DNA of 64,000 nt from Psammoneis japonica (lineage: Eukaryota), in NCBI GenBank assembly GCA_008632985.1, contig QPGO01000092.1, positions 248,001-312,000 on the forward strand. The letters are read 5' to 3'. The notes beneath the pieces were generated by a model. It did not search any database. It saw nothing but the letters and a program-made list of their open reading frames with translations, and had not been told where the DNA came from. The stretch's first letter is position 1, and every line of letters starts with the position of its first letter. Shown piece by piece: positions 1-63,500 of the stretch. The translations under genes and the position numbers were made by a program.

Positions 1-98
1 GTTACAAAGAACAGCGTGATTCATTCGTCACCATTCCAAGGATTGCGCCAAACTGCTTCATTCAGAACAAGACGCTGTTTCAAGATGCGCACAACGCA

Positions 99-2555: not shown

Positions 2556-2628
2556 TGCCAACTGTGCCCACTGCCAGCTAGATGCAAGCATCTTCATGTC
2601 CTTTGTAGATGCCGCTTGGTTCTGGGAA

Positions 2629-3675: not shown

Positions 3676-3917
3676 GTGTCAAAAATGTAAAAACTCACGG
3701 GTGTGGATTTTTCGCTTTGTTGTCCTGAGCCGCCATGGTCAAAACCACGATGAAGTGTTGTGCTGTTCACTTTTTATTTTGATGCTTGCGAGGTCATTCT
3801 ATCTTGACATCATCCTCCAGCATTTTGCAACGAGAATTGGTCGCATGCAAGCACGTGCACACAAGTGCTGAGAGTTGGCCGGTTAGAAGGTCCATTCGGA
3901 ACCTCAGTGATTTTAAT

Positions 3918-3988
3918 GCAGAGCTCGCACGTAGAATTCTACGGGCCCAATGTCACACGGAGTCCCACCTGGAGGATTGGAACCCATC
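3918..3988 (-). repeat. Terminal sequence matching the left end of the GACGCGTTCCAG MITE family; probable terminus of the transposon at <1..3988
   Basis: Reverse complement of gagctcgcacgtagaattctacgggcccaatgtcacacggagtcccacc...ggaacccatc matches 30324-30390. Confidence 0.75.
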
Positions 3989-6826: not shown

Positions 6827-6829
6827 TTT

Positions 6830-10730: not shown

Positions 10731-10732
10731 AA

Positions 10733-30323: not shown

Positions 30324-30713
30324 GACGGGTTCCAGTCCTAGGTGGGACTCCGTGTGACATTGGGCCCGTAGAATTCTACGTGCGAGCTCCGTAGTACGAG
30401 AATTTAATTAATGGATATATTTATCTTCAACATCAAATAAACTGCCAAGTTTGTGGTACAATTATGCCTCTTGCCACTCGACGTTTTTGCAAATGCGCCT
30501 GCCCTACGCGATTCTTAAGACATTATAGAATCGCGCTGTAACAAAAAATGTCAAAAGTTGTTGGACGGATCGCTCAATAAGTGTACCGTAAAATGACACA
30601 AAATATCGAAAAAATCACGTAGAAATCTACGTGCGCGACATACGACGTGATTCAAAAAACTATCGATGTCACAGTTCAGTAGTACGAGGTCCCACCTAGA
30701 CCTGGAACGCGTC
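30324..30713 (+). mobile_element. Young MITE (390 bp) with ~26-bp imperfect TIRs and 4-bp TSD CCCC
   Basis: gacgggttccagtcctaggtggga ... tcccacctagacctggaacgcgtc, flanked by cccc on both sides. TpA-rich although the flanks are TpA-poor. Confidence 0.9.
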
Positions 30714-40779: not shown

Positions 40780-43700
40780 AGCATTGCTGCACACAAGGTG
40801 GCAATGATGCAGGAGTCCTTCAAGTGCTGCACCGCACCACCCAACACCCGATTGCCGTGGCCGGGCCGGACCAGCCGTGGGACGGACGTTTCTTCTCCAT
40901 TGTCGGGAACTTGACAATGGGACAGTGCAATTTGGCTCTGCTGGCCAACTGCGCCTTCCAACTGGTGCCCCAGGGCACTTGGGCACCTGGCGATGAAGCG
41001 CTGTCAGGAGTGCATGTTGCGTCAACACTGGAGGGGACACACCACAGGTGGTGGTGCCCAATGCACAGAACGCAGTTGAAGTCCACACACAGTTTGCAAT
41101 GATGGTGCCATTCACGTTCGTCAATTTTGTTGCTCAACACTCCGCTGTCACCAGAACAAGCCTTTGTCAGAGTGCATTGGCCACCACCATGTCCAACAAT
41201 GTTGTGGGTTGCTTCTGGATTTTTTGAAGGCAGCGTGTTGTGCCGTGGCAGTGGATCAACATGTGTCACCAGTGGCACAGGACTGGCCAGCCATGGTGCC
41301 ACCACCAAATGAACAGCTCACTAGCTTCTTTGATGCCATGGTTCAGTGAGACCTGCCACACTGTGTGGGCCAGCCACTGCCGCCTTGCCAATTCAAACTG
41401 GCAGTCCCGGCTGTCCAAGATCTCACTGTCAAACAACACCAGCAACAATTGGATGCAATGGCAAGACAGCAGGCAGCAGCATGACAAAGACACGCACCAA
41501 GTTTTGTGGTGAGTTTCGAGTTGCAAAGCTGATGTGCCTGTGTCAGGCACACAGCCAAGACAACTTGCCACCTCTTTGTGCACAGCTGGCAGCATTGCCA
41601 AAGATGGGGTCACTTGCCACTGTGCAGAAATTGACGAGCAGCGTCAGGCTCACCACATGCATTTCAATGTCCCAGCACAGTGAGCTTGGTCACGAAGCTC
41701 ACGCAGATTGATTTTGCCTGACACAACAAAGACAAGCTGTCGCAAGGTGTCAATCCATTCTCATTCAGTGTGACCACACCAGAACAAGAAGCCGAGCAAG
41801 TGGTGTGCCACAACACCATGCATCAACAAATCCATGGTGGTGAGGGGGCACCATCCCCAGCCAACACCAGGGTGCTGGAGGCACTGGATGATGCCATGGT
41901 TGCCACGCTCCAAGTGGCACAGCAATCATGCAATGGGCTGTGCATCGTCTTGTCAGTGGCCTTCGGAGTTGCACACCCATTGGTCCAGTGGCTTGCCCAC
42001 ATGCACCAATCCATGGACATGCAAGCCAACAATTTGGCAGTCCAAATGATGATGCACCTGATCCTGCCAGCGAACTTGCAATGCTGTGCACAAGTCAAGA
42101 TGTGCCATTGGCTGGTTCCAGACCCAATCTTGCTTGCACAACCCAGTGCCATTCCAACCCTCTCAGCAGTGGCAGAAGTGGCCGATGCACTCCAGCTCTG
42201 GGTGGGACGTCGTGCTGCTGAGCTGTGACATCAACAGTTTTTTGGATCGTGCCGTGAAATTGTTTCATGCTCCCTGATTTGCGAAGCCAAACACTTTCCA
42301 TTTTCAACATTTGTGAGAATGAAAATGTGCTGGGTGTGTTCTCTGGTGTCTGCAGAACATGCTTGGGCAAACTGTCAATGATGTGCTTCAAGTGTGAAGG
42401 AGGAGATGCATTCAAAAAATTGTCTCTTTTTCTGTTGGCATTCATTTGCATTTTCATTGCTCAACAAATTTGCTGCAGAGCTTGCACGCAGAATTCTGCA
42501 GGCCAAATTTCACACGGAGTCCCACCTGGGGCTGGAACCTGTCAACCCAAGGAGCTCACCACTGGTGGTTAGATTCACCAACCACAGTGTGCAAGCCAAT
42601 GACGCAGCCCCGGGAACAGATGCTCCAACAGCAACCACCAACAGAGCAAAGCAGCACGCCCAGTGACATCTCCATTGCATGCAACAAGCAATGCGGTGAG
42701 CATTTCACAGTCCTGTGAGAGCGGCCCAATGTGCAATCATGGAATGTCAAACAGCAGTGTGCACTTGACAATGTCACCTTGCTAACAACAAAGCAGCAGC
42801 CACACAAACTTGACAAGCACAACTCAGATTCAGTGCGAGTTCACTGTTGACTTGGCATGCTGCAGCTGGAAACCATGGAAACCACATCACCATGGCCGTG
42901 ACTCTGTGGCAGCCACTTTCTCAACAACATTGCCTTCAAGAGTCACAACAATCAACAATGTGTTTCATCTTGCAAACTCATGTGCAGCACAATTGACATG
43001 TGAGAGTGTGATGGGCTTGTTGTTGACTCTCATGCGGTCGAAAAGCGATGGTCAGAAAATTGAACATTTCAGCTGTTTTTGCTGCAATGAATCAATTTCA
43101 AAGCACAGTGAGGCAAACACATTTGAAATGAATTGCAAGCTGTCAATGTGTGACAGTGTCATGGTGAGTTTGTGGTTGTTGATGGAGTGCATTGCATTCC
43201 GGTTGCCATTGTCATTGAGTTTCAACAAGTCGTTGGTCATGGAAAATTTGAAATGTCAAACATTTGTGTTTAGAGGTGCATTTTTTGACATGAGTTCTTT
43301 GCATCATAAGATGGCACACATGCAGAGCATTTGCATTTTCCCAGCATGACAACTCCATCAATTTATGACATGTCGGCATTGACCGCCAATTGTGACATGC
43401 GTTGAGGTTCACACACAAACATTGGGCTTGCCGCTGGCAAAAAAAGGATGTTTAGAAAAAAATTGGTGGGTGTCAAGACCATCACCCATCTGCATCTAAG
43501 CCAAATCGGCATGGTGCCACAATGTGCACGTTGACCACGCCCAATCGTGGACTGCATGCACTGTAGAGTGAACCCATCTGCACATCCCAATGCCTCCATT
43601 GAATCCATGCAACTTGGGTGTGCGCTTGATTGACTCCTCCAGCACATGTCACTTGCCGATCCATCCAAGGGCCAGGTCCACCTGATGAAGATCAACCCAG

Positions 43701-46596: not shown

Positions 46597-47004
46597 GATG
46601 CACCCCAGATGCAGGTGGGGGAATCCCTCTGCGACATTGGGCACATGCAGAATTCTGCGTGCGAGCTCTGCAGCAAAATTGTCAGGCAATGAATGTGCCA
46701 ATGATCCCCAACAGAAAATGAGGCAATTTTGTGAATGCACAAACTCGTCCATGATTGACACACATCATTTTTTGCTTGGTCACCAGGTGCATTCTCAGAC
46801 ATTGAAGAGTGCACCTGGCGCCATTGTGTTCCTGTGATTTCATCAAACAAAACGTGTCTGGGGTTTCACAAAACAGCAAGTCTGGAACAATTTTTTGGAA
46901 GATCACATGCAGAAAAAATTACGCGCGAAACATGTGACGGATGACAAAAAACAATTGTGTCACACACCAGCACTGTGACCTCCCACCCAGGACTGGAATG
47001 CGTC
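46597..47004 (+). mobile_element. Old, TpA-converted copy of the MITE (same subfamily as 62899), TSD ACCA
   Basis: Aligns end to end with 62899-63294; acca at 46593-46596 and 47005-47008. Confidence 0.9.
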
Positions 47005-47054
47005 ACCAGTGCATGTTGGTGGTGCCAGAACAGCCATGCCATCCCAGCTCAGGA

Positions 47055-47525
47055 ATGGAAAGGGGCCAACTGCGCCAGTGAAGTTGCTCCTCCCATCACT
47101 GCAAAATCCCAGTTGCCTGCTCACACTGGAATCAGATCACTGCAAGAGGTCAAACAAGCAAAGCGATGCCAGTCACTGGCCTTGCAAAGACCGACAAGGG
47201 GAGATGACCTTGGCTCTTGTGGCCAGTCAATGGCACAATTGGGAGTCATCTTCCACATCACCAGCAGCATTGAACGCATCTTAAGTTGGCATTGGAAAAG
47301 AGCTGCTTTGCTCATTCTTCCAAAGAGCTCTTCAGCAGCAAGCCAAACAGACAGTCTAAAAGCGCTCCCACCTCTCCCTCCCTCTTGCGCCATGCTGTCA
47401 TGGCTTGGGAAAGGAAAGGGACCAACTGCACTGACAAAGTCCTCCCATCCCTGCAAAATCCCAGTCACCTGCTCACACTAGAATCAGATCACCGTAAGAG
47501 GTCAAACAAGCAAAGCAACGCCAGT
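47055..47525 (+). repeat. ~115-bp direct repeat pair (47055-47170 and 47413-47525)
   Basis: ggaaaggg.ccaactgc...ctgcaaaatcccagt..cctgctcacact.gaatcagatcac...agaggtcaaacaagcaaagc occurs twice. Confidence 0.8.
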
Positions 47526-47555
47526 TGCTGCCTGTGGTGACACCCAAATTTTTGG

Positions 47556-50331
47556 CTTCTAGCCCCAGACTCCAAGCCAAGCAATGAGAGGAAGCTGTGG
47601 CTGGGTGAGTTGCGGAGGTCATCACGGAGGTGGACCAGCAAGGGACAGATGGGAGGCCAAGGACAGAGGACAGATGGACATGACGAGATCCCAGACATGA
47701 CCAATCCACGCATTGTTCCCTTGGCAGTCAGCATCAGAGGGGTTGCAACAACCATGGTCCACTGCAGCGACCATGCCTCATTGCAAAGTTGTTGCTCTGT
47801 TGATGATTGTCAAGGATCTGGGAGTGACATGTGTCCTCCACATGTTTGCTCTGTCAAATTCTGTGCTCATGATGGAGCAACTTGACTGAGATTCTGGAAC
47901 CGACTCATGAACAGTCATTGTTTCCGTCTCTCTTTTTTACTGTGCCAATGCAGCACTGCCTGATGCTGAGAGGATGGTCTCCTCTGTGTGACAAAAAGCC
48001 AATTTCTTGACAACCGCTCAGTGCATGGGTTGTGCCCTTGCCGACAGAACCAGCCGCATGCTGCCGGCCATGGTCAACCCCCTAGCTGGCACGAGGGTGG
48101 ATGTGCAAATGTGTGTGCATGTGAGTGCCCATTGAGAATGGTCTCTCTGTTCCTCCCTGGTTGTTCAACTGCCGGTCCCGCATGCTTGGCGCTTGACCAC
48201 TTTGTGTCCATCCATGCCACGAATGTTTTGATGCAGGCACGGAGCATGTTGGGTCCTCTGAGTGCCAGTGCCTGCTCACACAAGAGCAACCATCACGCAG
48301 GGTTTCATGGCTCACATTGTTTGCAGCCGTTGAAAATTTTGAAAATTCCTGTAAAACACCATGAGGAATTTAATCACGATTTTCGAAAGTCATGGACAGG
48401 ATGCTTCACACACAGAGTTCATGGTGGGAAACTTTGAGAGCATCTCCTCAAAATTTCCGAACTTGGTCAATCGCAACGGGTCTGTGAGGTTGTTGTTCAA
48501 TGACTGTGTTCACTCCTTCAGCCACTGCCATCCAGCGGGGTCGTGGTGCTGCTGACCAGCACCACATGACAGCTTTCCCTTTCTCAGACAAGAATGAAAT
48601 GGCACTGGTGTCTGTGCTTTGGCCTGGTGTGACCCATGAGGTTTGCCATGCCATCGCATCCAATCCGATGAAAGCAACCCAGTTTGCCTTTGTTTGCTCA
48701 AAGCGGATCATGATTCTTGCCCGCCCTCAAGTTTTTTTTACTTCGACAGAAGGGACTGCTTCTGTCATCAGGAGCTTGTTGAACGAGATTGGTGGTCATG
48801 CCCCAGTCTCTGTTGCTCTCAACTCCTTTCGAGCTTTGACGACTTCGCTCCTCCCAGTGTGATCGGCAACGGCTTTCCACCTTCCCAAGTTGGATCAGGT
48901 GCCGGACACTGTTGACAGCCCAACAACTCTGCCGGAGGATGACCGAGTCGCCTCTGTGGGGTGTCTGCTTTTTCCTCTGCCTGCAGCTGTGGAAGACCAC
49001 ATTTTGGTTCTGCCGCTGTTCCTGCCTCTGCCGCCAGGGAAGACTTTCCCTGGTGGCATTCCAGTGGGCGAGCCCACTCCTGAGTTGGACGTGGATTTCC
49101 CTGCTCTGGGAGCTGCATGGAAGCGTGGCATGCAACACATTGCAGCAAACAATGACCAGCATTCGGTCATGAAGGGTGGCCCTTTGTTCAACATGACCAA
49201 GATGGACGACACTGCAGAATTTGATGGTTTTGCACTCACGGATCGTCTGCTGCAGGTCACTGATGTTGCCATCCTGGCACCTGTCGCGGACTCCTGCCAT
49301 TTGGTCAAGCAGTCTGTGAAGGCTTTTGATGCCCTGGCGTGGGGCTCTCTGGGGTCCGACGCAGATGCAGATGATGCAGCAGTGCCAGCACCGGCAGTTG
49401 GTGGTGTTGGTGACAATGGCGGTGTGACAGTGTGACAAACAATCAAATTGCAGCGTTGTGTCAAGGGATCGCCGCGGCACCCCGCCCCCCCCACTTGGAA
49501 GGAAGAGGAGCATCTTGAGGTTGCCACTGAGCATGCCCCGCATTGGGGGTTGGTTGCAGGGTGCATTGCTCCTCCGCTGGAGAGCTGCACCCAGAATTCC
49601 TTGTGGTGCTCAAGGTTGCCGACAAATTCGTGGCCACGTGCAAATTTTAGGATCTGGTTGCCCACATCTTAGCTGGGTTGCATGCCCCAGCAGATCCTTT
49701 TTGGACAAGTTGACGCATCTTTTGCACGAGGTCATCAACGAAGCATTCACTGCAAGTGTGCGTTCGTTCCACGTGCACACTCAGCCTGCAACCTGCAGTG
49801 TGCAGGGAGGTGCTGATCCGCTGAGGCGGTGGCGCCGGGAATCCCACGGGGATTCTTCTAGCCCCAGACTCCAAGCCAAGCAATGAGAGGAAGCTGTGGC
49901 TGGGTGAGTCGCGGGGGTCATCACGGAGGCAGACCAGCAAGGGACAGATGGGAGGCCAAGGATGGAGGACAGACAGATGTGATGAGATCCTGGACATGAC
50001 CAATCCACACATTGTTCCCTTCTTGGCACCAGTCAGCATCAGAGGGGTTGCAGCCATGGTCCACTGCAGTGACCATGTCTCATTGCAAAATTATCCCACC
50101 ACATGCCCACCCTGGCTGTTTCGGCACAGTGCCGGACATCCTCTGTTTTGTCTGGGCTGCATTGCTGCAGACCTGCAGACTCGCACATCTGGGCTCCCAT
50201 TGGCTGCTGCTTCTACGGTGTGCAACTGCTGCTGTCCATTGCACACCTTAGATCTGGTGCTGTGGATCACTGTTGCACGTCATTGAGGTGCTGATCCGCT
50301 GAGGCAGTGGCCGGGAATCCCACGGGGATTC
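47556..50331 (+). mobile_element. Element with split direct repeats (A1 47556-47787; B1 49808-49855; A2 49855-50088; B2 50286-50331) around a broken ORF; Ngaro-like deletion derivative
   Basis: A = cttctagccccagactccaagccaagcaatgagagg...ctcattgcaaa; B = ggtgctgatccgctgaggc.gtggc..cgggaatcccacggggattc; internal ORF fragments 48500-49435. Confidence 0.6.
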
Positions 50332-52768
50332 GCCGAAAGGATTTGAGATTTTTCATGGTTGGGCGCGTGTGCAGTCTTTGCTTGCTTGTCTGTGTGTGTG
50401 TGCCATGCGTGCGTGCGTGCATGCAATTTCCTCGCGATGACGACTTTGCGTGCGCGACGCGACACTTCCTCACCAAATCAATCTTTCAATTGAGTCGAGT
50501 GATTCGAGAAGTCGTTGCACCTGCCACCGGCCACACAGTCGTGGATGATCTAACGGTTTTTTTGAAATTTTCCTGCCAGAAAATTGCGTGCAAGAGCAGT
50601 GCAAATTTTTCCAGGTGGTGCTTCTAAAAATCTCAGAATGGCACTCACTGCTGCCGGTGCGCAGGTTTGCCGGCACCAACCATGATGAACTGATTCATTC
50701 GTTGAGAACACTTCCTGTTGCTCATCCGCTGCATTCCATTCTTCTCTTGCAGATGTTTCAATTCTGTGTCTGTCAAAGCATCGCGTCGTCACCGCTTCAC
50801 AATGGAACACAGGAATCTGGTGGTGTTTGACACCAACGCAAATGGAGTCACCAAAAGATCTGCGGCCTGCAAGAATGAAGCAACGAAACTGCTGCAGAAT
50901 CTGTTCCCTTGACTTTCCTGCAGAGCGACAGGAAAAGTTTTCGACGACGTCGACTTTCAGTTTCCGTTGGCTTGCAACACTCTGGAAGCAATTTGGGCTG
51001 TCTTCCCCAATGACATGGCGGTCGCAAATGTGCATCCACGGGCCATGCTGACTGGCGTCAAAACATTCCTCAAGAAAGATCGCATCAAGAATGCGAAGCG
51101 GGTCAGCAACGCTTTGCTCTTGCAAGAGATTGACACTGTCCCGCAGCTCAACACGAAAGAGAACCGCCCTCCTCCTCCCGGGGTAGACTCCATCGAACTG
51201 CGCGACAACTTGAAGGCACCATCCTCCTCAAGAACACTCTGCGAATGCGGGTGCTGCTTTGGAGACGACTTCAAAGTTGAGGATGTGAGCGAATGCAGCG
51301 CGAAAAAAGGACGCTGCTGCTGCAACGATTGCACTCATCAACATGCAAGCGAGCAGCTGGATGGGAACAACAGCACGTCTTTCTGCTGCATCGTTGATCC
51401 AACGTGCAAAGCTGCTCATGGAGTGGTGACTTGTTTGGATCAAGTTTTCTCTCCAAACCTCCGAAAGCGCGTCAATGATCGGGCAACCCGAGAGCACATC
51501 AAGAAAGCGGGCCTTCTCGGCAGAGACGAGCTGTGGCACGTTGTTTCTTCTGATTGGTTTCCCCTCTGATGCGATTTGCTGCAGCTTTCTCACGATTCGC
51601 TTTTTCTCAATCCACCGTTGCTGCTTGAAGGACCTGCTCGACTTGTGAATGCTTGGGATTTCTCGAAGGGAGGCATCCAACGGTCTTCTGCCCCCCTTGC
51701 AAGAGAGAGTGCTGCCGCAAATGCCGTGAGCCAGCGCACCATGGAAGTTCTTGCGAGGACGTCAAGGCTGAGAAGGAACGCAAGAAAGACCCCATTCACC
51801 GTGCGGAAGAGAGGGTGTCCACAGCGACTGTGCGCAAGTGTCCAAAATGCTCTGCTGAACTCCAGAAATGCGATGGCTGCAACAAAATCACTTGTGCAAA
51901 ATGCAAAGCCTTCAGCTGCCACCTTTGCCGTGCACAAATCGAAGGCTGCGGTCACTTTTGCCGCGTCTTCGATTGTGATCGCAGTTGCAACAAATGCCAC
52001 TTGTGGGAAGACGCCAAGAAAGTTGATCGCCAGGCTCGCAAACAAGCCTGCCTTGCTGTCCCACGCGATGAAGCAGGCCACACGGACGAGCAGATTGCAA
52101 AGACAGGATTGCTCTCGCCAAAGGACAAGGCAGAGGGCAAGAAGACGAAGAAAGCCGCAGTCAGACCGCCGGCCTTTTTGCAAGAAGCAGCTTTCCCGCC
52201 CGTCCCCGATGCGGTGCCCCGCCCCATTGCCGCTGCTGCGGCTGCTCCTCTGCCACCTCATGTGCGGCCACGTGATGCAGCTGTCCCGCCCGTCCCCAAT
52301 GCGGCGCCCCATCCTGTTGCCGCTGCTCCTCAGCCACCTGATGTGCGGCCACGTGACGCAAGAGCCTGCATTATATCGTGAGTCTGATGATCATGATACA
52401 TTATAACGTTCTTTCACGTAATGTATCGTGAGCTTTCCCGCAACTAGAGAGAGAAGAGTCGTGTGTCTGATGTTGAATCGAAAGGCACAGAAAATAGCGA
52501 GAGGTTCTGCTCCGTGATTTGAATGATTTTGACGTATATCATCAGGTAGTCGATGTAACGATAGAAGATCTTGTGCGCACTTGAACTCCCCTGTTTTCGT
52601 TGCGACATAGCGATTGCATGTGAAACGGACTTACGATTTATTTGCGAAGAACAATTTCGCCGTTTTTTCTTGTCGGGGAATGACGAGCCCTTTCTTGCAT
52701 TAAGGCCGATCCAGTTGAACATGCTAGTTGACAGCTAGCACCAGACTGAGGTTTGAGCTAAATCCTGC
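50331..52768 (+). repeat. Segmental duplication, copy B
   Basis: Collinear with 37514-40460. Confidence 0.95.
50750..52381 (+). pseudogene. RBR E3 ligase pseudogene, copy B (extra TGA near 50910)
   Basis: Same RING-IBR-RING motifs as copy A in ORFs 50967..51569 and 51653..52381. Confidence 0.85.
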
Positions 52769-52789
52769 ATTGTTTATCCTGGGTACCAT

Positions 52790-53275
52790 TGGTTGACCCA
52801 ATCAGCGGACAGCTCTCTGGAAGGTCTGTTTCTCTGAATGACAGCAGTTTGGTCATGGCAGTGGGCGCTCCAGGAGTGAGCTCTAGTGCTCTGATATAAT
52901 GATATACTGTACCTCCATGACCGTGTACAGCGGTAACATCGACGTGGACGCAACTTGGCGAACGCAAAGCAACGAAGCAAATAGATGGTGCCTTTGGATC
53001 TTCTGCATAGTTTAGCGGAAATGGAACTGTCGTGGCTGTTGGGAGTATTTTCCATGAGGTCAACTGTCTTTCAAGAGCGGGTCAAGTTGGAGTCTTTCGT
53101 TATGACGAAACCGCAATGGAATGGAATCAGCTTGGCGAACGTCTTACTGGCAAGGCGCAAGACGATTTTTTTGGGTTTCTGTTTCTTTGTCTGCAGACGG
53201 TGACGAGGTGGGTATTGGGGCTAGTTTAAGCGATTCCAATGCAGAGGATTCGGGGTCCACGCAGGCATTCTCTTA
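52790..53275 (+). pseudogene. Frameshifted C-terminal fragment of an FG-GAP-like beta-propeller repeat protein
   Basis: Across frames: SVSLN...VMAVGAP, FG...SGNGTVVAVGS, GQVGVFRYD...WNQLGERLTG...DDFFG.SVSLSADGDEVGIGA. TpA content is normal. Confidence 0.6.
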
Positions 53276-53435
53276 AGTAGATATAGGTACATAGTGCCGG
53301 TACAAGAGGTTGATATTTTGAAATGTCACGTTGCCGTCGCATATCTGAGAATCTACCGGCAGCGTCGATAGTTGCAGACGAGTTACGCTTACGTCGCTGG
53401 TAACTCTCAACTCCAGTAAAGTTATATTTTCCTCT

Positions 53436-55436
53436 CTAGAATCCTCCAGCACCCCGAGACTCTTCTGCTTCGACACTGGGCTTCTTGCTGTGAATACTGA
53501 ACTTGTCTCGTTTGATGTCCGTCACAAAAGGTGTCCAATGAAGTTTAGAGGCATCCACTCGCGGTTCCTTGACTGGGTGCTTCTTGGCGAGTCGCTCCAG
53601 CAAGCTTTGTTCAGCAGCAATGAAATAAACTCCATTGATAATTTTCAGAATACCCAACTGATTCAGTGTAAAGACAATGTCTTCGGCCATGATGCTTGTC
53701 TTCTTGGAAATATCCATTATGCTCATGTGGTTGACTCCCTCGGAATGATTGTACAAGAAATCGATAACCGTTGACACCCAATACGGAATATACGCTTTCT
53801 GGCCCAGATCTGACATTGGTTTTTCGGGCGAGCCCACCTTTTCTTCCTTTTTGCTCAACTCGTACGAAAAGGAAATGAGAAAGCGTCCGTACCCCTTTCG
53901 CTGTTGGGACGGAAAAGTCAGAATACAGGCAAGATTGTAGCCCACGTCAGAATACTTCTCCTTGCTAAAGTATCCCACGGGATGATACCCACGATTGTCC
54001 ACCTCGCACAAAACGTAAAACAAAAAAGGATCCACGTCAAAGTAGAGCGTTTTGTGATCCAAAAAGAGTTTCGCAATGTAGCAGAGGTTTTGGCAATAGA
54101 TACGCTCGGACAAACCATCCACTTCAAACATGGACAAGTTCCCACTCCGATAAATCTCATTGCCTGGCGGATGTCGTTGATTCTTTGGTAGCTCCCGCGC
54201 TTGGTAACGTAGCAATTCACTCTTGCGCGAGAACAAGTGTAAGGAGAACTCACAGCAATACAAGATTTCAATGTATCCCTTTTCGGACAAGAGTTCCTTG
54301 GGCAGTGGTGAAAAGTACCACGTTTCCATACGATAGGGCCCGAGTTCCAGGAAGGAGACATTCTTGACTTTGGTGACTTCCTCGTGCTCTCGTAGCGACG
54401 CTTCATCCAATCCCTCGTGCTCGTCCAGTTCTTGAGCCGGTACCGTGGCAACCACGTGTTCGCCCACCACCGTTTCTTCTGCCGCATGAGTGGCAATGGT
54501 CAAAACTTCCTTGGCGGTATCATCGTCCGAAGCGGTGCTGCCAGCGGGAGGCGTCGTCGCGTCCGCTGGCGAACGACCTGCCGGAGCCTTTTCAGTTGAC
54601 TCGTTCTCCGCTTTGCGTCGCCGTGTCATGCGTGGTGTTGTAGTTGCTGACGCTGGATCCGAGACCGTAGCTGCAGCAGCGTCGGCAGACGATTCCGCAG
54701 CTAAAGTAGTGGTAGGAGTAGCACCTCCCACGGCGGCTTCCATCTGTCCCGGTGTTCCTGTAGCCGCTGTATTGTTCTCAATCGAAGGTGTTTTCACACT
54801 GGATCGTCTCCGACTGCTGCGAGGTGCGTTAATGGTTGCCGCTGAGGAAGCTAATTCTGCATTCCGTTCCTCCAATCGCGCTTGCTTTCGTTTTTGACGT
54901 TCTTCCTCCTTTTTAATGGCTCGAGCCTTGGCATTCCCAATGGAAGGAGGCGATACAATACGCTCCATACCAACCCATTCGTCCATGCGTCGATTGAAGT
55001 CGCGGTAATGCACATAATAACGATACTTATCACCGACAGCAACACGATCAATAATGTCACAGAGGCGCACGGTTGTGCCGTGGGGATGATGTGCTCGGAC
55101 ACTAGGCCCACTGCCGGCTCGTCCGTCGACTGTAGCATCATCATCCTCTTCTTCTTCGGACGAAGACGACGTTAACCAGTGATCCTCATTTTCCTCCTGA
55201 ACACCGTGTAAAACCTCAATCACAGATCCACGAGCAAATGGATGTGCATCAATACCCCCAGCAGGTGTCGGAGTGGAAGACTGCGATGGAGCAGGCGCTG
55301 ATTGCTTGCTCTTGGTGGAAGCCTTTGTTTTCTTTTGCTTGCCTTCTCGAGAAGCAGCATTCGGTGATGGAGACGCAGACGTCTTGCTCTTTTCGTCCAC
55401 CTCCATATCGTCTTTTTCTGGCTTATTACTACCCAT
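53436..55436 (-). CDS. MYST-family histone acetyltransferase (Esa1/Tip60-like) with Tudor-knot chromodomain
   Basis: YYVHYRDFNRRMDEWV, METWYFSP, HPPGNEIYR, YCQNLCYIAKLFLDHKTLYFDVDPF, QRKGYGRFLI, GSPEKPMSDLG; first ATG at 55436. Confidence 0.96.
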   Translation of the reverse strand: MGSNKPEKDDMEVDEKSKTSASPSPNAASREGKQKKTKASTKSKQSAPAPSQSSTPTPAGGIDAHPFARGSVIEVLHGVQEENEDHWLTSSSSEEEEDDDATVDGRAGSGPSVRAHHPHGTTVRLCDIIDRVAVGDKYRYYVHYRDFNRRMDEWVGMERIVSPPSIGNAKARAIKKEEERQKRKQARLEERNAELASSAATINAPRSSRRRSSVKTPSIENNTAATGTPGQMEAAVGGATPTTTLAAESSADAAAATVSDPASATTTPRMTRRRKAENESTEKAPAGRSPADATTPPAGSTASDDDTAKEVLTIATHAAEETVVGEHVVATVPAQELDEHEGLDEASLREHEEVTKVKNVSFLELGPYRMETWYFSPLPKELLSEKGYIEILYCCEFSLHLFSRKSELLRYQARELPKNQRHPPGNEIYRSGNLSMFEVDGLSERIYCQNLCYIAKLFLDHKTLYFDVDPFLFYVLCEVDNRGYHPVGYFSKEKYSDVGYNLACILTFPSQQRKGYGRFLISFSYELSKKEEKVGSPEKPMSDLGQKAYIPYWVSTVIDFLYNHSEGVNHMSIMDISKKTSIMAEDIVFTLNQLGILKIINGVYFIAAEQSLLERLAKKHPVKEPRVDASKLHWTPFVTDIKRDKFSIHSKKPSVEAEESRGAGGF

Positions 55437-55807
55437 GATGGGAACGAGTGATTTAAAAACGTGTTTTCTTGGCACTTAGCTTCAAAACACGGCAAAACAA
55501 GCGCTTGCTTCAATGAAGATTATCATACGGTTACGCCATGGTGGATGCGGTGCGGGGTGCGGGGTAGTGTGTTTTTGTTTGTGTGTCTGTGTATTGCGGC
55601 GGGTTGACACAGACGCCGCCACGCCGCGGTCGCTCGCGCGCAACTACTCTGCGCGCAATCCGACCGCATCCTACCTTTGATGGGGATCAAAGATATCAAA
55701 GACATCAAAGATAGTCTCAACTACTTCTACGTACTCACGGCAAAGACAAGTCAAAGATCTGTTTTCTGTTCTGGTTTACTGCGATCCTGTATTTCATATA
55801 GTCGATC

Positions 55808-57152
55808 ATGACAAGGAGTAAAGCTTTGAAGATTCTTGCTGCCACTTTGTTGTTGCATGCAAATTTTCATTTCAGCAGCAGCAGCGTGGCGAACGCCAAA
55901 CACCATCCATACAAACGCAAGACGTGGCACAACCTTAATGTTTTTGAGGGTGATATTTTGCCCGAGTACAACCAGATATTGAAATGCTATGGTGCGAACA
56001 CTACAGCCGAGTTGGTTGACAAGGGAATTTTGGTGGTTCCCAAGAAGAGCAAAAGCAACCCAAATGCTGAGGTGCGACCATTGGCAAGGTTGGGGCGCGA
56101 CTACTACGGCCTCTGGCCCACTCGCATTAAAGACGTGACGGTGATTCCCTATGAGATTGACGAGGGTGCCTTTTCTGCCAGAGAACGGTCCATCATCGAA
56201 CAGACAACGCAGGACATTTCGCAGCAGCTAAAGGTTGTCCAGTTTGTGCCCCGAAGGGTAGGACACAAAGCGTTGCCCTATTTGACTTTTAAATCGGACA
56301 GAATTCGTCGTACAATTCCTTATCTTGCACAGTATCCAGCCTGTTGGACTCACGTTGGGTGGCAGAAGGACACCAGCAAAAACAATGTAATTAATCTGGA
56401 GGGCTCGTATTGCATCTCAACAGGATTTATCAAGCATGAATTGTTGCATGCCCTTGGCATGTGGCACACTCCGAGTCGGTGGGATCGCGACTCGTACCTG
56501 ACAATCGTTTTGGGAAAACGTTGAGCCAGGTCTTGAGTATTATTTTCACAAACGGATCCACAACGACATGCTGGGATTCCCGTACTTTGACTACGCATCA
56601 ATTATGAACAATAATAATAACGAATATTCCAGAAATGGAAGCGATACCATGGTGGAACCCGTAACGACTGGAATACTGCTAGACTTGTCCAAAGGCGACA
56701 TTTTGTGGATTCATTTGCTCTACCAATGTCAGTCGGGACCCCGCACGTATCAAGACTATTTGGCGAATCCCTGCACTGAAGATTGCCCATGCTGGGAGCA
56801 AGACGACATACGTACTACCGACGATGCAGTGATCATGAATTGCCACGGAAATGATAGTGCCTGTCAAGGCGACCTTGTTTGCTCACTGCAGACGGATCAG
56901 TGCGTTCTTGCACCAAAACGTGGTGACAGCACCGCTGAAGACGTACAACTGTGGTCGTCGCCACAGGTCGCCACCGGTGGTGGATTTTCTTATATCCGTT
57001 CATTCATTAGGGCCGCGCTATTACTCTTGGCCATGGTTGGATTTGCGCATATTAGTAGAATTGCAAGGCGGGGTGCTGGTGCTGGTGACGGCACAGGCTT
57101 GACTGCTCATCATGACCCACGAGAATACGGGAGTATTCCCCGAAGCAATTGA
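55808..57152 (+). CDS. Astacin-family (M12A) zinc metalloprotease with signal peptide, Cys-rich module and C-terminal TM; one +1 frameshift at ~56510
   Basis: FEGDI propeptide motif, HELLHALGMWH..SR.DRD, FDYASIM. Removing one base in gttttggg gives a continuous IVWENVEPG... frame. Confidence 0.85.
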
Positions 57153-57227
57153 GTTTCAGTCTCATGTCGTCGCCAAACCAGAGGTGCAGAATTAAATAAT
57201 GTAAACAGGTTTATTATTTTGAACTCT

Positions 57228-58724
57228 TTAGGATAACTCAATGTCATGCCCATACTGTCTACCCCGATACGGTTCTTGGTAGTCCACTGTACTAAGACTA
57301 CCATAATGTGAGCTTCCAAATACCTTTCGAAACGGCAGCAAGAGGAACTTGAAAAAGCAGCAAAACAGAGTAATAGCAAGCCGGCAAATGCTACAAAAAG
57401 GAAATAACAAACGCGCAAGAATAGAGTGTCAGTCGAAATAATAATGCACGTTTCCTATTACTGCAAAACCTCAATGGAGCCATTCTTACCTGGCACAAAT
57501 TCCATCTGGATTGTCTGACATTTGATGCGCTGTAAAGACCATTCCTACAATAGCCAATATAACACCAAAGGTTCCAATACTCAGTACCTCCCGTTCCTCC
57601 TCATGCATCAGTTCCTCGACCTGCTCTTCTTCGTGATCCTCTTCTTCGCCAATATGCTTGTCCTCGATATCCTGGATCTCCTCATTGTCAATTTCAGGTG
57701 GCACATACGTCGACGAAGATGTATCAATGGCAGGTTCATCCGACCAATCCAAATTATCATCGGGAATGGGTTCCCGGTTTTCCTCCTCCTCCTCTTTGGT
57801 GGGCGTGTCCTCGCTCTCTGGAATCGGTTCTCGCTCCTCTTCAGGCTCGCCAGGCTCTTCGTCCTCGTTTTCTCCTTTTGTTTCTGGCTCCTCGGGTGTC
57901 TCCTCGGGCGTTTCTTCCGATACAGGTTCCTCCTCCTCGTCTACTGGATCCTCTTCTTGCGCAACTTCTTCTTCCGGTGCAGGTTCCTCCTCCTCCTCGT
58001 CTGCAGGTTCCTCCTCTTCGGCAGGTGTCTTCTCCTCCGCAGGTTCCTCCTCCTCCTCCTCAGGTGTTTCTTCTTCCTCCACAGGTTCCTTCTCTTTTGG
58101 TTCAGGTTCCTCTGTCGGTTCTTCACCGTTTGCCGGCTCTGGTTCTGATGATTTTGCTGCTTTTTGTTTTGGTGTCGGGTCCTTTTCTGATTCCTTTTCT
58201 TCATACTCATCCTCTGGAACCTCCGCGGGCGGCTCCTCGTATTCCTCCTCCTCTCCTTCTACTGTTTCTTCCGCAGGTTCTTCTTCCTTTGGTTCCTCGC
58301 TATGCGTTTTGGTAACTGCTGGCTTTGTCTCTGGAGCTGGAATTTCAACCGTGGATTCGTCCTTTGCGTGACTTGACGACGTTATAATCTCGGGTGTTTC
58401 CTCCTGCACCGGCTCTTCTTCTTCTACCACTGGTTCTTCCTTTGTTTGTTCATGTTTTTCTGTTTCCTCCTTCTTTTCGTCCTTGTCATTGTGATCATGA
58501 TGCTCTTCTTCTTCATCATCTTCGTCTGAACTACTGCCATCGTGAAGCCACCGTGGTGAAGATGGATCGATATTCAATAACGATGCAACTGTTGTTGTCG
58601 ATGCAACATCGTGTTTCTTTACTCTTCTTAAATATTGTTGACATGTAACGGCAAGAGGACAAGCCACCACCAATAGCAGCAGCAATAACAAGCATACAAG
58701 CCGCCGCATAGTTCCAGAAGTCAT
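57228..58724 (-). CDS. Secreted-type, highly acidic (Glu/Pro-rich) membrane protein; two exons, intron 57391-57489
   Basis: Hydrophobic signal, EEEP repeats, TM GTFGVILAIVGMVF. GTAAG...TTTGTAG splice joins NPDGICA-SICRLAITLFCCFFKFLLLPFR...DIELS*. Start codon uncertain. Confidence 0.85.
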
Positions 58725-59190
58725 TGCGTGTATGTCAAGCGATCTCTCTGCGGGGTGTGGTGTGTTTTTCGTCATTTTCAGAGTGTTATTTCCTGCTGAC
58801 GTCAAGCACGTGGTTGCAAGATCGAAAGGTCTGTACGTCGACACAGCATTGTTCACTCTCACCGGTCAAGTTACGATTCAGTTTATTTTCAAATATTAAT
58901 ACAATCATGATTTATATAGTATTCATTCAATTAGTACATTTTGGAAATTTCGATCTCTACTATCAAACAACAAGTGCCCAACGTGCGGTCGTCGAATTTT
59001 GCGTTGAGGCGATCCACGTAAAAGTTGCAAGAAGCAAAAAGTCTTTGTGTTGCCGACGAACTGCGAACGCAACAACGACGTTGCTGTTGTTGCAGCATTG
59101 TTGTTATTATCCTCTTTATTACAACAGCACAAGTAGTGAGCTCATCACTGTCTCTACTTGATTCTACTCATGTCATTTGCATTCGTCCAG

Positions 59191-60086
59191 TGCCCCGACG
59201 GCCATCGCTGCGGCAACGGGAGTCAGTGCGTCGAAGTGGAGAAAGAGGAGGGCACGTATACATGTGACTGTGACGCCATTGCCGACGATTCCAATGTGTT
59301 TGCGGGTCTGAGTTGCGAACACCAGGCCACGGTGTTTTGTAACGACGACAATACCATTTCGAAAAACTCGTTTTGTACCAATTTCGGAACGTGTACGAAA
59401 CTCGTGACGGATCAGCAAGCGCATTTTGCGTGCAATTGTCGAGACGAATACAAGGGCGATCATTGCGAATTTACGGCAACGGCGCAATTGCCAAATCATG
59501 CTCTCGAGAGTATTACCGGCAACAAGGGAAGCGGTGGTGGTGGTGGTGGATTGTCGGGTGGAGCCGTGGCGGTCATTGTGTTGGTAGTCGTGGGGATTGT
59601 ACTTGCGGCTGGATTGTTTTACATTCGAAAGCGTGGGCTGCGACAGTGGGATGATTCCACTTCGGACAGTCATAAGGACAGTGTCCGAGCAGCACCCGAT
59701 TTGGTGCTTGATGCGGATGGATCCGTCTTGTCGGGTGCAGTCAAGAGTGGTTCCGGTGTCAATAATCCTCATCGAATGGCAATGGCTTGCCCGAGAATGT
59801 TCCTGTGAGTGGCGACAGTCTTGTGTCTCCAACCAGTGTTTCGTCCAACATGGAAAATGGGCTTGCGTCGTCGCCACCGTCATCGTCGTCTTCTGTACCA
59901 CCACCGCCGCCGCCCCCCGTGTCTACCCCGAGCGAACACTCTACGCCTGCTACCCCTACCACGCCGCACGCTGATGCTGCCGCTGAGAGTACTAGTCCTC
60001 AGGCAGAGAATGATCAAGCGGTGTTTGTCATTGATGATGCTGAACATGACAAGGAGGATGAGCCGACGGAGCCAGAGATTGTTTAA
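59191..60086 (+). CDS. EGF-like domain single-pass membrane protein; 5' exon not located; apparent 1-bp frameshift near 59765
   Basis: C..G..C.NGS.C...Y.CDC...FAGLSCEH and FCTN.GTC...CNC...YKGDHCEF; TM AVAVIVLVVVGIVLAAGLFYI; tail continues in ORF 59787..60086 ending EPEIV*; acceptor-like ...gtccag at 59190. Confidence 0.75.
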
Positions 60087-60599
60087 AGTAGATTGTAGGT
60101 ACGATTGGGTGCGGAAAAAGAGGGCTTCAATAGTTCGTTCATGTTGTAGAGCCCGAGCCATTCGCTCGTCCATGTCTTTGCTTCCTCAACTTAAATTATT
60201 TAGAATTTTTCAACAACTTGTTTGCAGACTTGCATTGGGGTGATTTTTGTTTGGGATACCGAGTGCGAGGCATCTTTATACGGTTCGTGTAGTCACTGCA
60301 ACCCGGATCTCTCTCTAGGCTAGAAATCTAGCTACCACAAAAGGGAGAGAGCATCGCAACTTCCAAACTCAAAGGAAAACAGGTGTAAGATTGCAATCTG
60401 TCAAGTCACATGTAGCGCCATCGTGCACACAAGCAAGTCAAACGAAAAAAAAAACTCATTCGCTCGAACAAACCAGGCCAACGGCAGTTTACTGCCGCGC
60501 TCCCTGCTGGTGTGTGTGTTTCGCCAGCAGACAAGTTGACGGGTGCTGCGCTGGGATCACCACAGTCAGCAGCAACTGCTGTTAATGTTACAGATTATA

Positions 60600-63500
60600 C
60601 CTGGTAAACTGTCTGGAAGCCAAACAAAAAAATGACTGCATCTCAGGGTGCCTGTGATCCTTGGCTGCAACAGGTGCTTTTGGTCCTCAAACTGGCAAAA
60701 AAGAAATGACTGCGTGTGCTTCACAGAAACATTTCTCTCATTTGGCCCAATCTCTGGCCACACTGAAGCTTTTGTCACACCTGTTCAAAACCACATCAGC
60801 AACCCTAGAACAATGCTGCTCATCCATCAAAATTTTGTCATGCTCTCTTTGTCTGTTGGATTGTCTCTTCCAAAATGATCTCATTTTGCATGAATGCAAA
60901 CCAATCTTCTGCCAGATCCAAATGGAAATTTGTGCCATCAAGTCAAGCTTCCAATTTCTCATTGAACACAACTGCCTTGTCACTTCTTGCACTGTCATCA
61001 TTCAAACAGTCATCTCACAAATCACATGATGTCTCATGCTGACAAAACATCTTTGAAATCAGCTGTCTGCTCTCAGCACTCTCAACCTGCAATGCACATT
61101 GGACCCAACACAGTGCAACACACTAAGACAACAATCCAATCTTCTTGGATCATCTGCTGCCCACTTGAATTGCAACCCCATGCTGTGCAAAACAGATCAT
61201 GAAAAAGCTCAAAATCTGGGTGCGCCATCAATCAGTCTTGGCAATTTTTGTCCTGTGGTGTCCTCCCAGAAGCCAGCTCTCAAGTGTTTTTTCTGCACTC
61301 CATGAGCAGTGGCAGCCATGCCTTGCAGACAAGACCACAAAATCCCAAAGATGCTGCATTTGAACTTTCTGCCTGTGAGCCCTCTTTTTGTCAAAAAAAA
61401 CCTGCTTTTTTCTCCTCTCTCTGTCTCTTGTCTCGGCAGCGCGGTGGTTTTGGTTTTCTTGCCTTGTTCCAGCACACACACAATCTGATCCTCCTCACTC
61501 TTTGAGCATGCACTGCAGTTTTGTTTTGGCCACCTGTGAGCTCTTTTGCTCCATTCATTGTCAATCTGATGTCATCTGTGAAGTCAACAAGCAACCCATC
61601 AGCTTTAGAGTGTGTGCCCATCAGACAAACCTCACCTTTGCGCAAATTTCTCTTGCACAAACAGCTCTTGTTTCACTTTGTTCAACTGCTCAAGTGCACC
61701 AAGATTTGAGCCAACACTTGCTGGGTCCCAAGCACCATTGGCAAAAACAACATCAGGCAAGTGTTGTTTTTTTTTCACTCAGCCAGAGCACACAAGACCC
61801 AAAGCACATGCAACTGTCCCAATGGCATGAAAGAGGATGAACACTTTATCTGCCTTCTGAGCGCCAAAGAGAATTTCTGGGACCAAACAGACCACACTCA
61901 CCACTCACCAGTGCTGGGACATTGTGCACATGGCTTTGATTTGGGTCAGTCAAAAATGGCCAAAAACATCCTTTCAAACCACAACATTTGGTTGCCAGCC
62001 AACAGGCACACAAGACTTCTTTCTTGTGCTTGGACATTTCCAAACAGCACAAACAACAAGCAAGAGCTTCTTTGTCTGAGTTGCACAAGCCCAAAATGGG
62101 CGCTAACCTCACACACCTTTTTTGCAATTTTTGCTGGCTTCCAATTTGCACCAACACAGCAAGCACCAAAATGAGCATTTGACTCATTGTCTGCACAGTG
62201 ACCAGAGGCTCTGAAACACTTTGGTTTGCAGCTGTTGCTGCAATGGAACAAAAACACTCTGTTTTGAGACAACACAAATGCCCCAGTGTTTTTTTGTTGA
62301 CAAGATGATCAACAACAAAGTCCCTCATGTCACCCAATGATGCACAGCATGTCATCAATGCTGTCAGTGCCACCCTGCTCTTTGCTGCAGGCACAAAAGA
62401 GTGAGCACTGTCTCTGAGCCTGGCACTGGTGCTCTGACCTCCTTTTTGCCCCAACCCCCTGTTTCCAGAGTCAGCCTCAGTTGTGCAAAAACAGCAAGCC
62501 CCGCCAACAAGAAATCCAGCACTGCTCCAACACCTTCTTTGTTGTCCCAGCCCCACATCCAGCTGTGCATGTTTCCAAGCCACTTTTTCTTTCATTTTGA
62601 TTCAGTGCTCACTTTTCCTTGACATTGTGACTGTGCCCTTCATTGCAGCCACCCTTTTGTGTGCTGGGACAATGAACACCCACAATGCCACCATCATTTT
62701 GCAACATTTGCAAGCAGCCCCACTTGTGCATCAGGTGAAAAAACAAGTGTGCCAAACTGAACACTGCACCAGTGATGAGCTGTTGATGACAGCTGTGCAC
62801 ACCAGCTGAGGTGTTGCCTCTGCCAAGCACATGTGGAGGGCCACCTTTGCCCCTGCCAAATTGCCTCCATCTGCTGCAACTGCAATCAGAGGGGTGCTGA
62901 CGCGTTCCAGACGTAGGTGGGAATCCGTGTGACATTGGGCCCGTAGACTTCTACGTGCGAGCTCCGTAGTAAAATTACACGGTAATTAAAATGTCAATGA
63001 TCGCCAACAGAAAATGAGGCAATTTTGCGAACGCACAAACTCGCACATGATTGAAGTACATCATTTTTTACTTAGCCAGTTACATTCTTCAGACATTGAA
63101 GAATGTAACTGGCGCATTATTGTTTCTATAAATTTGTTACATAAAACGTCTGGGGCTTCGCAAAACAGCGAGTCTGGACAATTTTTTTTAAATATCACAC
63201 GTAGAAATCTACGTACGAAACATACGACGGATGATAAAAATTATTGTTGTCACACGTCAGTACTACGAGCTCCCACCTAGGGCTGGAACGCGTCTGCTGC
63301 AAGCATCAGCAGTCTCTCTCTGAAATGAGTTTTGTTTTGACAAGGGACAACTCTCAAGCTGAGCACATCGTCCATGCAAGCTGAGCACCTGAAATGTGAG
63401 AAGCAAGAAGCACAAGCTCCTGAAAAGTCTCTTGAACAAGGCTGGTTGTTGGCAGCATGTGAGTGTGCATCTCAGAGGTGGTGTCTTGACCTTTTCTGTC

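What the first reader, a model, noticed from the sequence alone, without database searches (positions are those of the whole stretch)
46597..63294. Young and old copies of one MITE show before and after states
Seen: 62899-63294 and 30324-30713 are TpA-rich islands with sharp TSD-defined edges inside TpA-poor DNA. Their relatives 46597-47004 and 42184-42543 show systematic conversion: cgTAggtggg>tgCAggtggg, ttcTAcg>ttcTGcg, gTAgTAaaatTA>gCAgCAaaatTG, gaTAaaaa>gaCAaaaa, cagTAcTAcg>cagCAcTGtg, accTAgg>accCAgg, plus CG>TG/CA. Inference: the young copies inserted after the flanks were mutated. The mutator is therefore episodic (for example tied to sex), currently inactive, or slower than the latest MITE burst.
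Basis: partly seen in the sequence, partly recalled or inferred. Interest (0 to 1): 0.8.

Follow-up and report, generated by a model that had tools for sequence, protein, structure and literature searches.

The report
Location-gated TpA mutator in diatom MITEs
Copies of a small jumping element in a diatom are either almost untouched or have had most of their TA steps rewritten to TG or CA, and which state a copy is in tracks where it sits, which points to a still-active DNA-editing defence that is switched on region by region.

Summary
Observation confirmed, with corrections: the four copies belong to three sister MITE families plus an old subfamily, so they are not true before/after pairs. 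The RIP direction is refuted (596 TpA losses vs 4 gains in converted family-A copies). The mutator is not extinct: in the newest subfamily 20 of 62 possible TpA transitions occur vs 10 of 282 others. Copies are bimodal (unbiased sample: 15 of 28 at most 23% converted, 1 at 48%, 12 at least 61%), and both states occur in all three young subfamilies. Timing looks locus-gated, not one genome-wide episode and not a uniform clock: no strand coordination; converted copies sit in CpG-rich flanks (1 of 32 vs 23 of 73 in CpG-dead DNA); one Kolobok-like transposon copy is TpA-erased, with CpG loss, in only one half. Preferred context TAY. Closest known: TpA hypermutation in Bigelowiella natans (2026 preprint); my searches found no diatom report. 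The scan has noted this mutator many times in this genome; the kinetics and gating are what this report adds. An ADAT/TadA-like DNA deaminase is inferred, not shown.

The parts
62899..63294 (+). Young MITE, family A, subfamily A1 (396 bp, imperfect TIRs of about 27 bp, TSD TGCT); 29 of 31 TpA kept, 2 already TA>CA, 26 of 26 CpG kept; flanks TpA-dead and CpG-dead (CpG o/e 0.03 and 0.11)
   Evidence: 257 exact genome matches to a TpA/CpG-free 24-mer of the family
30324..30713 (+). Young MITE, sister family B (390 bp, TSD CCCC); 29 of 29 TpA kept; flanks TpA-poor but CpG-rich (0.65 and 0.91)
   Evidence: 338 exact matches to a family-B 23-mer
46597..47004 (+). Old-subfamily copy of family A (TSD ACCA); 1 of 31 TpA kept, 13 of 26 CpG changed to TG/CA, 38 other differences in 281 sites
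42184..42543 (-). Eroded copy of a third sister family (C); 0 TpA; internal deletion; TSD degraded
3904..3988 (-). Left end of a family-C-like MITE that was split by a Kolobok-like insertion at a TTAA; the rest of that MITE lies just left of the window (G000:C93:247294-247611); outer TSD GGCT
1..3903 (+). Right 3.9 kb of a 4.3-kb Kolobok-like DNA transposon (transposase in pieces 830-2404 on +, second ORF 2629-3678 on -), TpA-erased along its length; its sister copy on C62 (L181) is the same-age internal control

Best explanation
A diatom genome carries a context-specific A:T>G:C mutator (target 5'-TA-3', best TAY, either strand) that is still working but is gated by locus state. A new MITE copy stays almost intact until its neighbourhood is in, or switches to, an 'on' state; it then loses most TpA through many independent hits spread over many cell divisions, with a smaller CpG>TpG loss in the same domain. 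'On' domains are silenced, still CpG-rich repeat DNA; old, CpG-exhausted DNA and genes are mostly 'off'. Shown: direction, context, activity during the newest amplification, bimodality, independence of hits between copies, lack of strand coordination, flank association, a within-element boundary. Inferred: that the gate is 5mC/heterochromatin (CpG loss used as proxy), that hits accrue in mitotic cells, and that the chemistry is adenine deamination to hypoxanthine by an ADAT2/TadA-like enzyme (about 0.55 among chemistries).
For: Direction: 596 TpA losses vs 4 gains in 26 converted family-A copies; the same site becomes CA in some copies and TG in others, pairwise concordance 0.687 vs 0.704 expected for independent hits over 325 pairs. 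Active in newest burst: 20/62 vs 10/282 distinct events, P=6e-10. Both states in A1 (14 converted/31 intact), A2 (4/5), A3 (8/4) and B (6/33); pooled dose ratio about 140 (A) and 80 (B), while private neutral changes are equal: 20 in 32 vs 42 in 73 copies, ratio CI 0.6-1.9. Extant sister copies have had equal time since their TpA-intact ancestor, so at least the donor lineages were spared. No strand coordination (chi2 25.6 over 25 copies, permutation P=0.43); simulation rejects up to 50 strand-coordinated rounds (P<=0.005), 100 at P=0.03, 300 fits. Flank CpG o/e median 0.64 vs 0.40 in TpA-poor flanks (30 vs 63 copies, P=6e-7); unbiased subset P=0.01; 1/32 vs 23/73 in CpG-dead flanks, P=9e-4. 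C62 Kolobok-like copy: 18 TpA in 1,960 bp vs 102 in 2,334 bp (LR 51, largest of 300 null runs 17.5); CpG lost 12/91 vs 1/84 (P=0.003); discordant CA/TG pairs with the C93 copy 16 vs 1; 4 transversions in 4,289 aligned bp. Context: at 36 asymmetric sites 345 hits on the TAY strand vs 91 on the TAR strand; off-target A>G is 7-fold higher in converted copies and also prefers a 3' pyrimidine (31/166 vs 10/158 sites, P=8e-4). TadA-derived editors prefer TA, and wild-type TadA edits UACG (PMC12265680, PMC13225742; passages). The same signature arises in clonal lines of B. natans.
Against: Among the 73 intact copies conversion does not vary with flank state (4.8-7.5% in four classes; rho 0.07), so their few hits may partly be inherited from donors, and many may simply be very recent. 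The neutral clock is weak: at a B. natans-like rate (about 1e-5 per TpA per generation, my arithmetic from the preprint's 211 mutations, 6,169 TpA and 3,132 generations) and a P. tricornutum base rate of 4.77e-10 (PMC6604790), converted copies would carry only about 0.05 extra neutral changes, so equal counts do not prove equal age; private changes may also be transposition or assembly noise. The C62 boundary could be a recombination or conversion junction with a fresher copy (only 2 matches over the full transposase query, so no donor is visible, but an allele cannot be excluded). 90 of the 120 searched loci were picked by similarity; only 30 (28 full-length copies) and 664 kb of contiguous DNA are unbiased. 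Within converted copies CpG loss does not follow TpA dose (rho 0.07), so the two processes are co-located but not one reaction. No methylation, chromatin or enzyme data.
Confidence: 0.6

Rival explanations
1. Episodic, genome-wide action (for example at each sexual cycle or under stress): copies present at an episode are hit, later ones are not.
For: Bimodal distribution with 1 of 28 unbiased copies between 24% and 60%; B. natans lines differed (11 of 15 hit), read there as non-constitutive activity; diatom sex is infrequent (recalled).
Against: Dose among converted family-A copies spans 1.3-24 and is overdispersed (variance 8.2 vs 2.6, 0 of 5,000 simulations reach it); no strand coordination, so a handful of passes is rejected if a daughter cell inherits the hits of one strand (not if lesions are fixed on both strands before replication); half of one element is spared; flank dependence; the B. 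natans process ran in clonal lines.
Confidence: 0.2
2. Near-uniform fast clock on all repeats plus a very recent MITE burst from a few protected donors; intact copies are simply young.
For: Dose is continuous (0 to 24) with intermediates at 0.19-0.76; intact copies show the same low conversion in all flank classes; CpG loss rises with class (27/1,961 intact vs 127/837 converted); expected neutral divergence is too small to measure.
Against: Needs protected donors in at least four lineages (A1, A2, A3, B), which is itself locus gating; older copies should sit in flanks with equal or lower CpG, but they sit in higher; in the C62 element both TpA and CpG loss stop at an internal boundary.
Confidence: 0.17
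3. Alternative chemistry under the same gating: error-prone resynthesis by a Pol eta-like polymerase during repair of methyl-CpG deamination, rather than direct adenine deamination.
For: TpA and CpG loss are co-located; Pol eta gives A>G at WA motifs in somatic hypermutation (recalled, not from a call).
Against: Non-TpA A>G is only 60 of 5,246 site-copies in converted copies against about 75% of TpA; the AAA context had 1 hit at 32 sites in 26 copies, far stricter than a WA preference; copy L047 has 26 of 31 TpA converted with all 26 CpG intact.
Confidence: 0.2
4. The mutator stopped before the newest burst, or the direction is RIP-like (CA/TG>TA).
For: Many young copies are intact (10 of 66 family-A copies with no conversion).
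Against: TpA transitions 13-fold enriched in the newest subfamily; 596 losses vs 4 gains, and converted copies disagree with each other, so they cannot be the ancestor; Kolobok pair: 83 TpA losses in one copy vs 5 in the other.
Confidence: 0.03

Closest known systems
TpA hypermutation of integrated viral DNA in Bigelowiella natans (Mettrop et al., bioRxiv 10.64898/2026.01.13.699255; read parts 1-3 of 5: abstract, results, discussion, conclusion; methods and supplements not seen)
   Same: TpA>TpG/CpA transitions on either strand, confined to blocks of foreign or repeat DNA; TpA-poor, CpA/TpG-rich windows; authors propose an ADAT2-like A-deaminase and report DDE and RT domains enriched among TpA-depleted coding sequences.
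   Different: Different supergroup (diatom, stramenopile, vs rhizarian); targets here are multicopy DNA transposons and retroelements and cover 155 of 323 sampled 2-kb windows, against 124 small clusters there; erasure runs to near completion; accompanied by CpG loss (there 210 of 211 changes were A>G/T>C); a TAY preference and a flank-dependent on/off state are shown here and are not reported in the parts read.
Repeat-induced point mutation (RIP) of ascomycete fungi (defining features recalled; its mention in the preprint seen)
   Same: Repeat-associated, dinucleotide-specific transition hypermutation that ruins transposons.
   Different: Opposite chemistry and direction (RIP makes TpA from CpA); no strand coordination here; near-identical copies are left intact and half of one repeat is spared, so homology alone does not trigger it.
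TadA-derived adenine base editors / ADAT2 (PMC12265680, PMC13225742; passages only)
   Same: A>G with preference for T before the A; wild-type TadA substrate UACG; the major edited site in one study was GTACA, and GTAC is the fastest four-letter context here (2.87).
   Different: Engineered or tRNA-acting enzymes; no natural diatom DNA-acting enzyme was identified here.
DNMT5-dependent CG methylation of transposons in Phaeodactylum tricornutum (PMC9998398; passages)
   Same: A plausible gate: CG methylation that silences young transposons in a pennate diatom.
   Different: No TpA mutator in the passages seen; P. tricornutum mutation-accumulation lines show an ordinary GC>AT bias and the text has no mention of TpA (PMC6604790).

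Membership tests
B. natans-type TpA hypermutation | A:T>G:C transitions almost only at TpA, both strands | tested here: met
   596 losses vs 4 gains; CA 339 / TG 327; off-target A>G 60 of 5,246 site-copies
B. natans-type TpA hypermutation | Confined to bounded blocks of foreign or repeat DNA | tested here: met
   Window profile; 155 of 323 2-kb windows TpA-poor; boundary inside the C62 element
B. natans-type TpA hypermutation | Rate about 1000-fold above background per generation | tested here: inconclusive
   Only relative: 71-76% TpA conversion with 20 private neutral changes in 32 copies; no per-generation rate
B. natans-type TpA hypermutation | Acts in clonal (asexual) lines, in some lines only | not testable with these tools
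   Needs mutation-accumulation lines; the strand test suggests many rounds
B. natans-type TpA hypermutation | No accompanying CpG loss | tested here: not met
   127 of 837 CpG lost in converted vs 27 of 1,961 in intact copies; 12/91 vs 1/84 within one element; the experiment there was short, so this may reflect time scale
Fungal RIP | C>T at CpA, creating TpA | tested here: not met
   9 TpA gains at 49 consensus CA/TG sites over 80 copies vs 994 losses at 31 sites
Fungal RIP | Dense, strand-biased mutation in one passage | tested here: not met
   chi2 25.6 over 25 copies, P=0.43; 1-50 rounds rejected
Fungal RIP | Triggered by homology, hitting duplicated copies over the homologous length | tested here: not met
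   73 of 105 young-subfamily copies intact; half of a 95%-identical 4.3-kb duplicate spared; MITE length may be near RIP's lower limit (recalled)
Fungal RIP | Premeiotic timing | not testable with these tools
   No cross data
MITE (non-autonomous DNA transposon) | Short, TIRs, TSD, high copy number, no long ORF | tested here: met
   390-396 bp; 27-30-bp inverted ends; 4-bp TSD in 30 of 30 nearest family-A copies; at least 257 and 338 motif matches; no ORF of 150 aa or more confined to the elements
MITE (non-autonomous DNA transposon) | Assignable superfamily or autonomous partner | tested here: inconclusive
   4-bp non-specific TSD, GAC ends; the candidate parent proved to be a nested Kolobok-like element; no match in metagenome contigs
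Kolobok (nested 4.3-kb element) | TTAA TSD and RR...YY termini (PMC9587614) | tested here: met
   TTAA on both sides of the C62 copy, termini GG...CC
Kolobok (nested 4.3-kb element) | DDD/E transposase with C/DxxH signature | tested here: met
   983-aa ORF, PF20700 E=3.3e-7 above cut-off; a DxxH motif seen by eye after the presumed second Asp; one homologue, Thalassiosira oceanica, 32%
Kolobok (nested 4.3-kb element) | KolX (P2X7 ballast-like) second protein; placement in the Kolobok tree | tested here: inconclusive
   Opposite-strand 400-aa ORF, PF20478 E=0.037, below cut-off; no tree built

The most novel reading that the evidence does not exclude
Diatoms have a natural, chromatin-guided DNA adenine editor: a TadA/ADAT-like deaminase recruited to CpG-methylated repeat domains that erases TpA over hundreds or more of mitotic divisions and goes quiet where a domain has run out of CpG, so that exhausted heterochromatin becomes a refuge in which new transposon copies survive intact and can reseed bursts. 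Shared with a rhizarian, it would be a SAR-wide, non-meiotic mirror image of RIP.
Probability: 0.3. Interest if true: 0.9.

Novelty: new variant of a known kind. Interest (0 to 1): 0.66.

Why it matters
A natural A-to-G DNA mutator aimed at selfish DNA has, in the papers I could search, one report (a rhizarian preprint). Here it shapes about half of the sampled DNA of a diatom, and the MITE family turns it into a testable system: hundreds of near-identical 400-bp reporters in different chromatin settings. If gating by CpG-rich silenced domains holds, it links 5mC silencing to adenine editing, explains how transposons outlive such a defence (refuges in exhausted DNA), warns that transposon ages in such genomes are badly overestimated from raw divergence (copies at 91-93% identity differ almost only at TpA and CpG), and gives a sequence fingerprint (TAY, weak NAY) with which to look for a natural DNA adenine deaminase.

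Tried and rejected
(1) The 4.7-kb element with MITE ends at the window's left edge as autonomous parent: rejected; it is a Kolobok-like element inserted into a MITE's TTAA. (2) Neutral divergence as an age clock: equal in both classes but too coarse to decide. (3) Empty-site allele of the 62899 copy: no joint skipping it in the contigs of the two runs laid (one sample, possibly the source of the assembly); flank contigs run into the element; contigs can drop such a path, so inconclusive. No RNA holder listed. (4) Relatives elsewhere: 0 matches of an end motif in metagenome contigs; no look-alikes among the scan's notes by sequence or by words. (5) Candidate enzyme: 9 PF00383 matches in the genome, not read, so no candidate is named. 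(6) A larger unbiased sample (70 more listed family-A places; family-B places) could not be obtained; the unbiased set stays at 30 loci. (7) Literature: searches listed no diatom TpA mutator; a 2025 diatom TE preprint (10.1101/2025.10.24.684338) has 0 occurrences of TpA, RIP or hypermutation; the Prasinoderma paper (PMC11884799) has none of TpA. The library lacks most subscription journals, and bioRxiv supplements were not seen. (8) The first changepoint fit failed (log of zero) and was redone. Rows dropped: of 155 distinct hits only near-full-length ones were kept (80 A at 75% identity or more, 40 B at 85% or more); 14 old A copies and 1 divergent B copy were left out of the dose model, leaving 105.


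Full report
Setting. The window is G000:C93:248001-312000 of a 91.4-Mb assembly in 597 contigs. Named homologues of the MYST acetyltransferase at 53436-55475 are from diatoms (Nitzschia, Pseudo-nitzschia, Epithemia, Mayamaea, Fistulifera). Window-wide TpA o/e is 0.23, CpA 1.53 and TpG 1.57; gene-rich stretches (about 32-38 kb and 52-60 kb) have TpA o/e of 0.3-0.9, the rest mostly below 0.25. In 664 kb of contiguous DNA from five contigs, 155 of 323 2-kb windows are TpA-poor (44 also CpG-dead, 55 intermediate, 56 CpG-rich).

Observation. The two TpA islands, their TSDs and the six quoted conversions are real. The four elements are not one family, however: 62899 is family A, 30324 family B (66% identity, shared ends), 42184 a third family (68%), and 46597 an old family-A subfamily with 38 differences outside TpA and CpG. 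A proper before/after series needed other copies.

Data set. I took 30 loci nearest to 62899, 30 nearest to 46597, 30 nearest to 30324, the first 30 of 257 exact matches to a TpA/CpG-free motif in contig order (unbiased for state) and the contiguous DNA. This gave 155 distinct hits, of which 80 near-full family-A and 40 family-B copies were aligned; 105 belong to young subfamilies (A1, A2, A3, B) and went into the dose model.

Direction. In 26 converted family-A copies there are 596 TpA losses against 4 gains; the products at a site differ between copies as expected for independent hits (concordance 0.687 vs 0.704 over 325 pairs), and TA>CG doubles are rare (12 in 80 copies). Two copies of a 4.3-kb transposon differ by 83 TpA losses in one against 5 in the other.

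Still active. Among 31 intact A1 copies, 20 of 62 possible TpA transitions are seen, against 10 of 282 other transitions and 1 of 52 CpG transitions (OR 13, P=6e-10; distinct events only, so inheritance does not inflate the count). The 62899 copy itself has two such hits.

Bimodal. In the unbiased sample 15 of 28 full copies have 0-23% of TpA converted, 1 has 48% and 12 have 61-96%. Both states occur in A1, A2, A3 and B and are interleaved on a tree built without TpA and CpG columns. A site-by-copy model gives pooled doses about 140-fold (A) and 80-fold (B) apart, while private neutral changes are equal (20 in 32 vs 42 in 73). Copies such as L058 (20 of 31 converted, no other change outside CpG) and L047 (26 of 31, all CpG intact, one other change) show how fast the process is. 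This equality does not prove equal age: at a B. natans-like rate the expected neutral excess is about 0.05 per copy (my arithmetic).

Not one sweep. Converted copies show no strand coordination (CA 297, TG 284; chi2 25.6 over 25 copies, P=0.43; neighbouring hits on the same strand 261 of 556 vs 258 expected) and an overdispersed dose of 1.3-24. If each round's hits follow one parental strand, up to 50 rounds are rejected (P<=0.005), 100 are marginal (P=0.03) and 300 fit. Family B gave one weak signal (94 of 161 neighbours on the same strand vs 83 expected, P=0.018, all copies pooled), which I do not weigh heavily among six such tests.

Gated by place. Converted and intact copies both lie in TpA-poor DNA (P=0.98), but converted ones lie in CpG-rich flanks: median o/e 0.64 vs 0.40 (P=6e-7 for TpA-poor flanks; P=0.01 in the unbiased subset); 1 of 32 vs 23 of 73 lie in CpG-dead flanks (P=9e-4). 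An age effect would predict the reverse, and CpG-dead DNA is old by definition, so selective deletion is a poor explanation (inference). The cleanest control is the Kolobok-like copy on C62 (L181): a boundary near C62:83264 separates 18 TpA in 1,960 bp from 102 in 2,334 bp; CpG loss stops at the same place (12 of 91 vs 1 of 84); the erased half was converted independently of the C93 copy (16 vs 1 discordant CA/TG pairs); the copies differ by 4 transversions in 4,289 bp. The two halves reproduce the two MITE states (about 75% TpA and 15% CpG lost vs about 6% and 1%). Against gating: among intact copies conversion is flat across flank classes, and the boundary could be a recombination junction.

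Signature and chemistry. Hits prefer a pyrimidine after the A: 345 vs 91 at 36 asymmetric sites; 214 of 223 converted at YY sites vs 70 of 126 at RR sites; off-target A>G is raised 7-fold in converted copies and has the same 3' preference. GTAC is the fastest four-letter context. This resembles TadA-type deaminases (passages) and the ADAT2 proposal for B. natans, but no enzyme was examined here. A Pol eta-type rival is disfavoured by the strictness for T before A.

Comparison. The process works like, and by its core signature belongs with, the TpA hypermutation of B. natans (bioRxiv 10.64898/2026.01.13.699255; parts 1-3 of 5 read); it is not RIP. It differs in lineage, scale, targets and coupled CpG loss. 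Searches listed no diatom report. The scan's earlier notes describe this mutator many times in this genome, including MITE before/after pairs and the TAY rule; in the few lines shown I saw none that gives copy-level kinetics or the flank effect.

Verdict. New variant of a recently described kind; interest 0.66.

Noticed in passing
window 1-3903 (G000:C93:247612-251903) and L181 (G000:C62:80930-85223): Kolobok-like transposon (TTAA TSD, 983-aa transposase, opposite-strand ORF with a weak P2X7-ballast hit) nested in a MITE; one homologue found, in Thalassiosira oceanica.
   Followed up: yes
window 20071-30200: ABC-transporter-domain gene in pieces on both sides of a Copia-type element (about 21.6-28.3 kb); all TpA-erased but CpG-rich; a repeat of about 225 bp at 21.35 kb and 28.34 kb with 21 differences in 220 aligned sites.
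   Followed up: partly
window 37513-39547 and 50330-52360: Duplicated 2-kb segment with a Cys-rich ORF (no Pfam hit at E 0.01); 10 TpA lost in the second copy vs 1 in the first, CpG lost 24 vs 23.
   Followed up: partly
window 6800-19200: 12-kb block dead for both TpA and CpG, with an RT-RNase H relic at 11414-12136.
   Followed up: no
window 54895-63454: Of 14 listed differences between the assembly and read contigs in this stretch, 6 are CpG transitions, 2 TpA transitions and 6 other (9 further differences in the laid stretch were not shown): CpG looks hypermutable even in genes.
   Followed up: partly
loci L001-L180: The MITEs avoid TpA-rich (gene-like) DNA: 12 of 105 copies vs 168 of 323 background windows; 34 of 120 copies have another related MITE within 1.5 kb.
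   Followed up: partly
window 57390-57490: A contig of run X2 skips 99 bases with CT..AC ends, like a spliced intron of a minus-strand gene, although the run is listed as DNA.
   Followed up: no
G000:C41:505477-506590 and G000:C317:55748-56795: Two neighbouring deaminase-domain (PF00383) matches, present on two contigs, among 9 matches genome-wide; not read.
   Followed up: no
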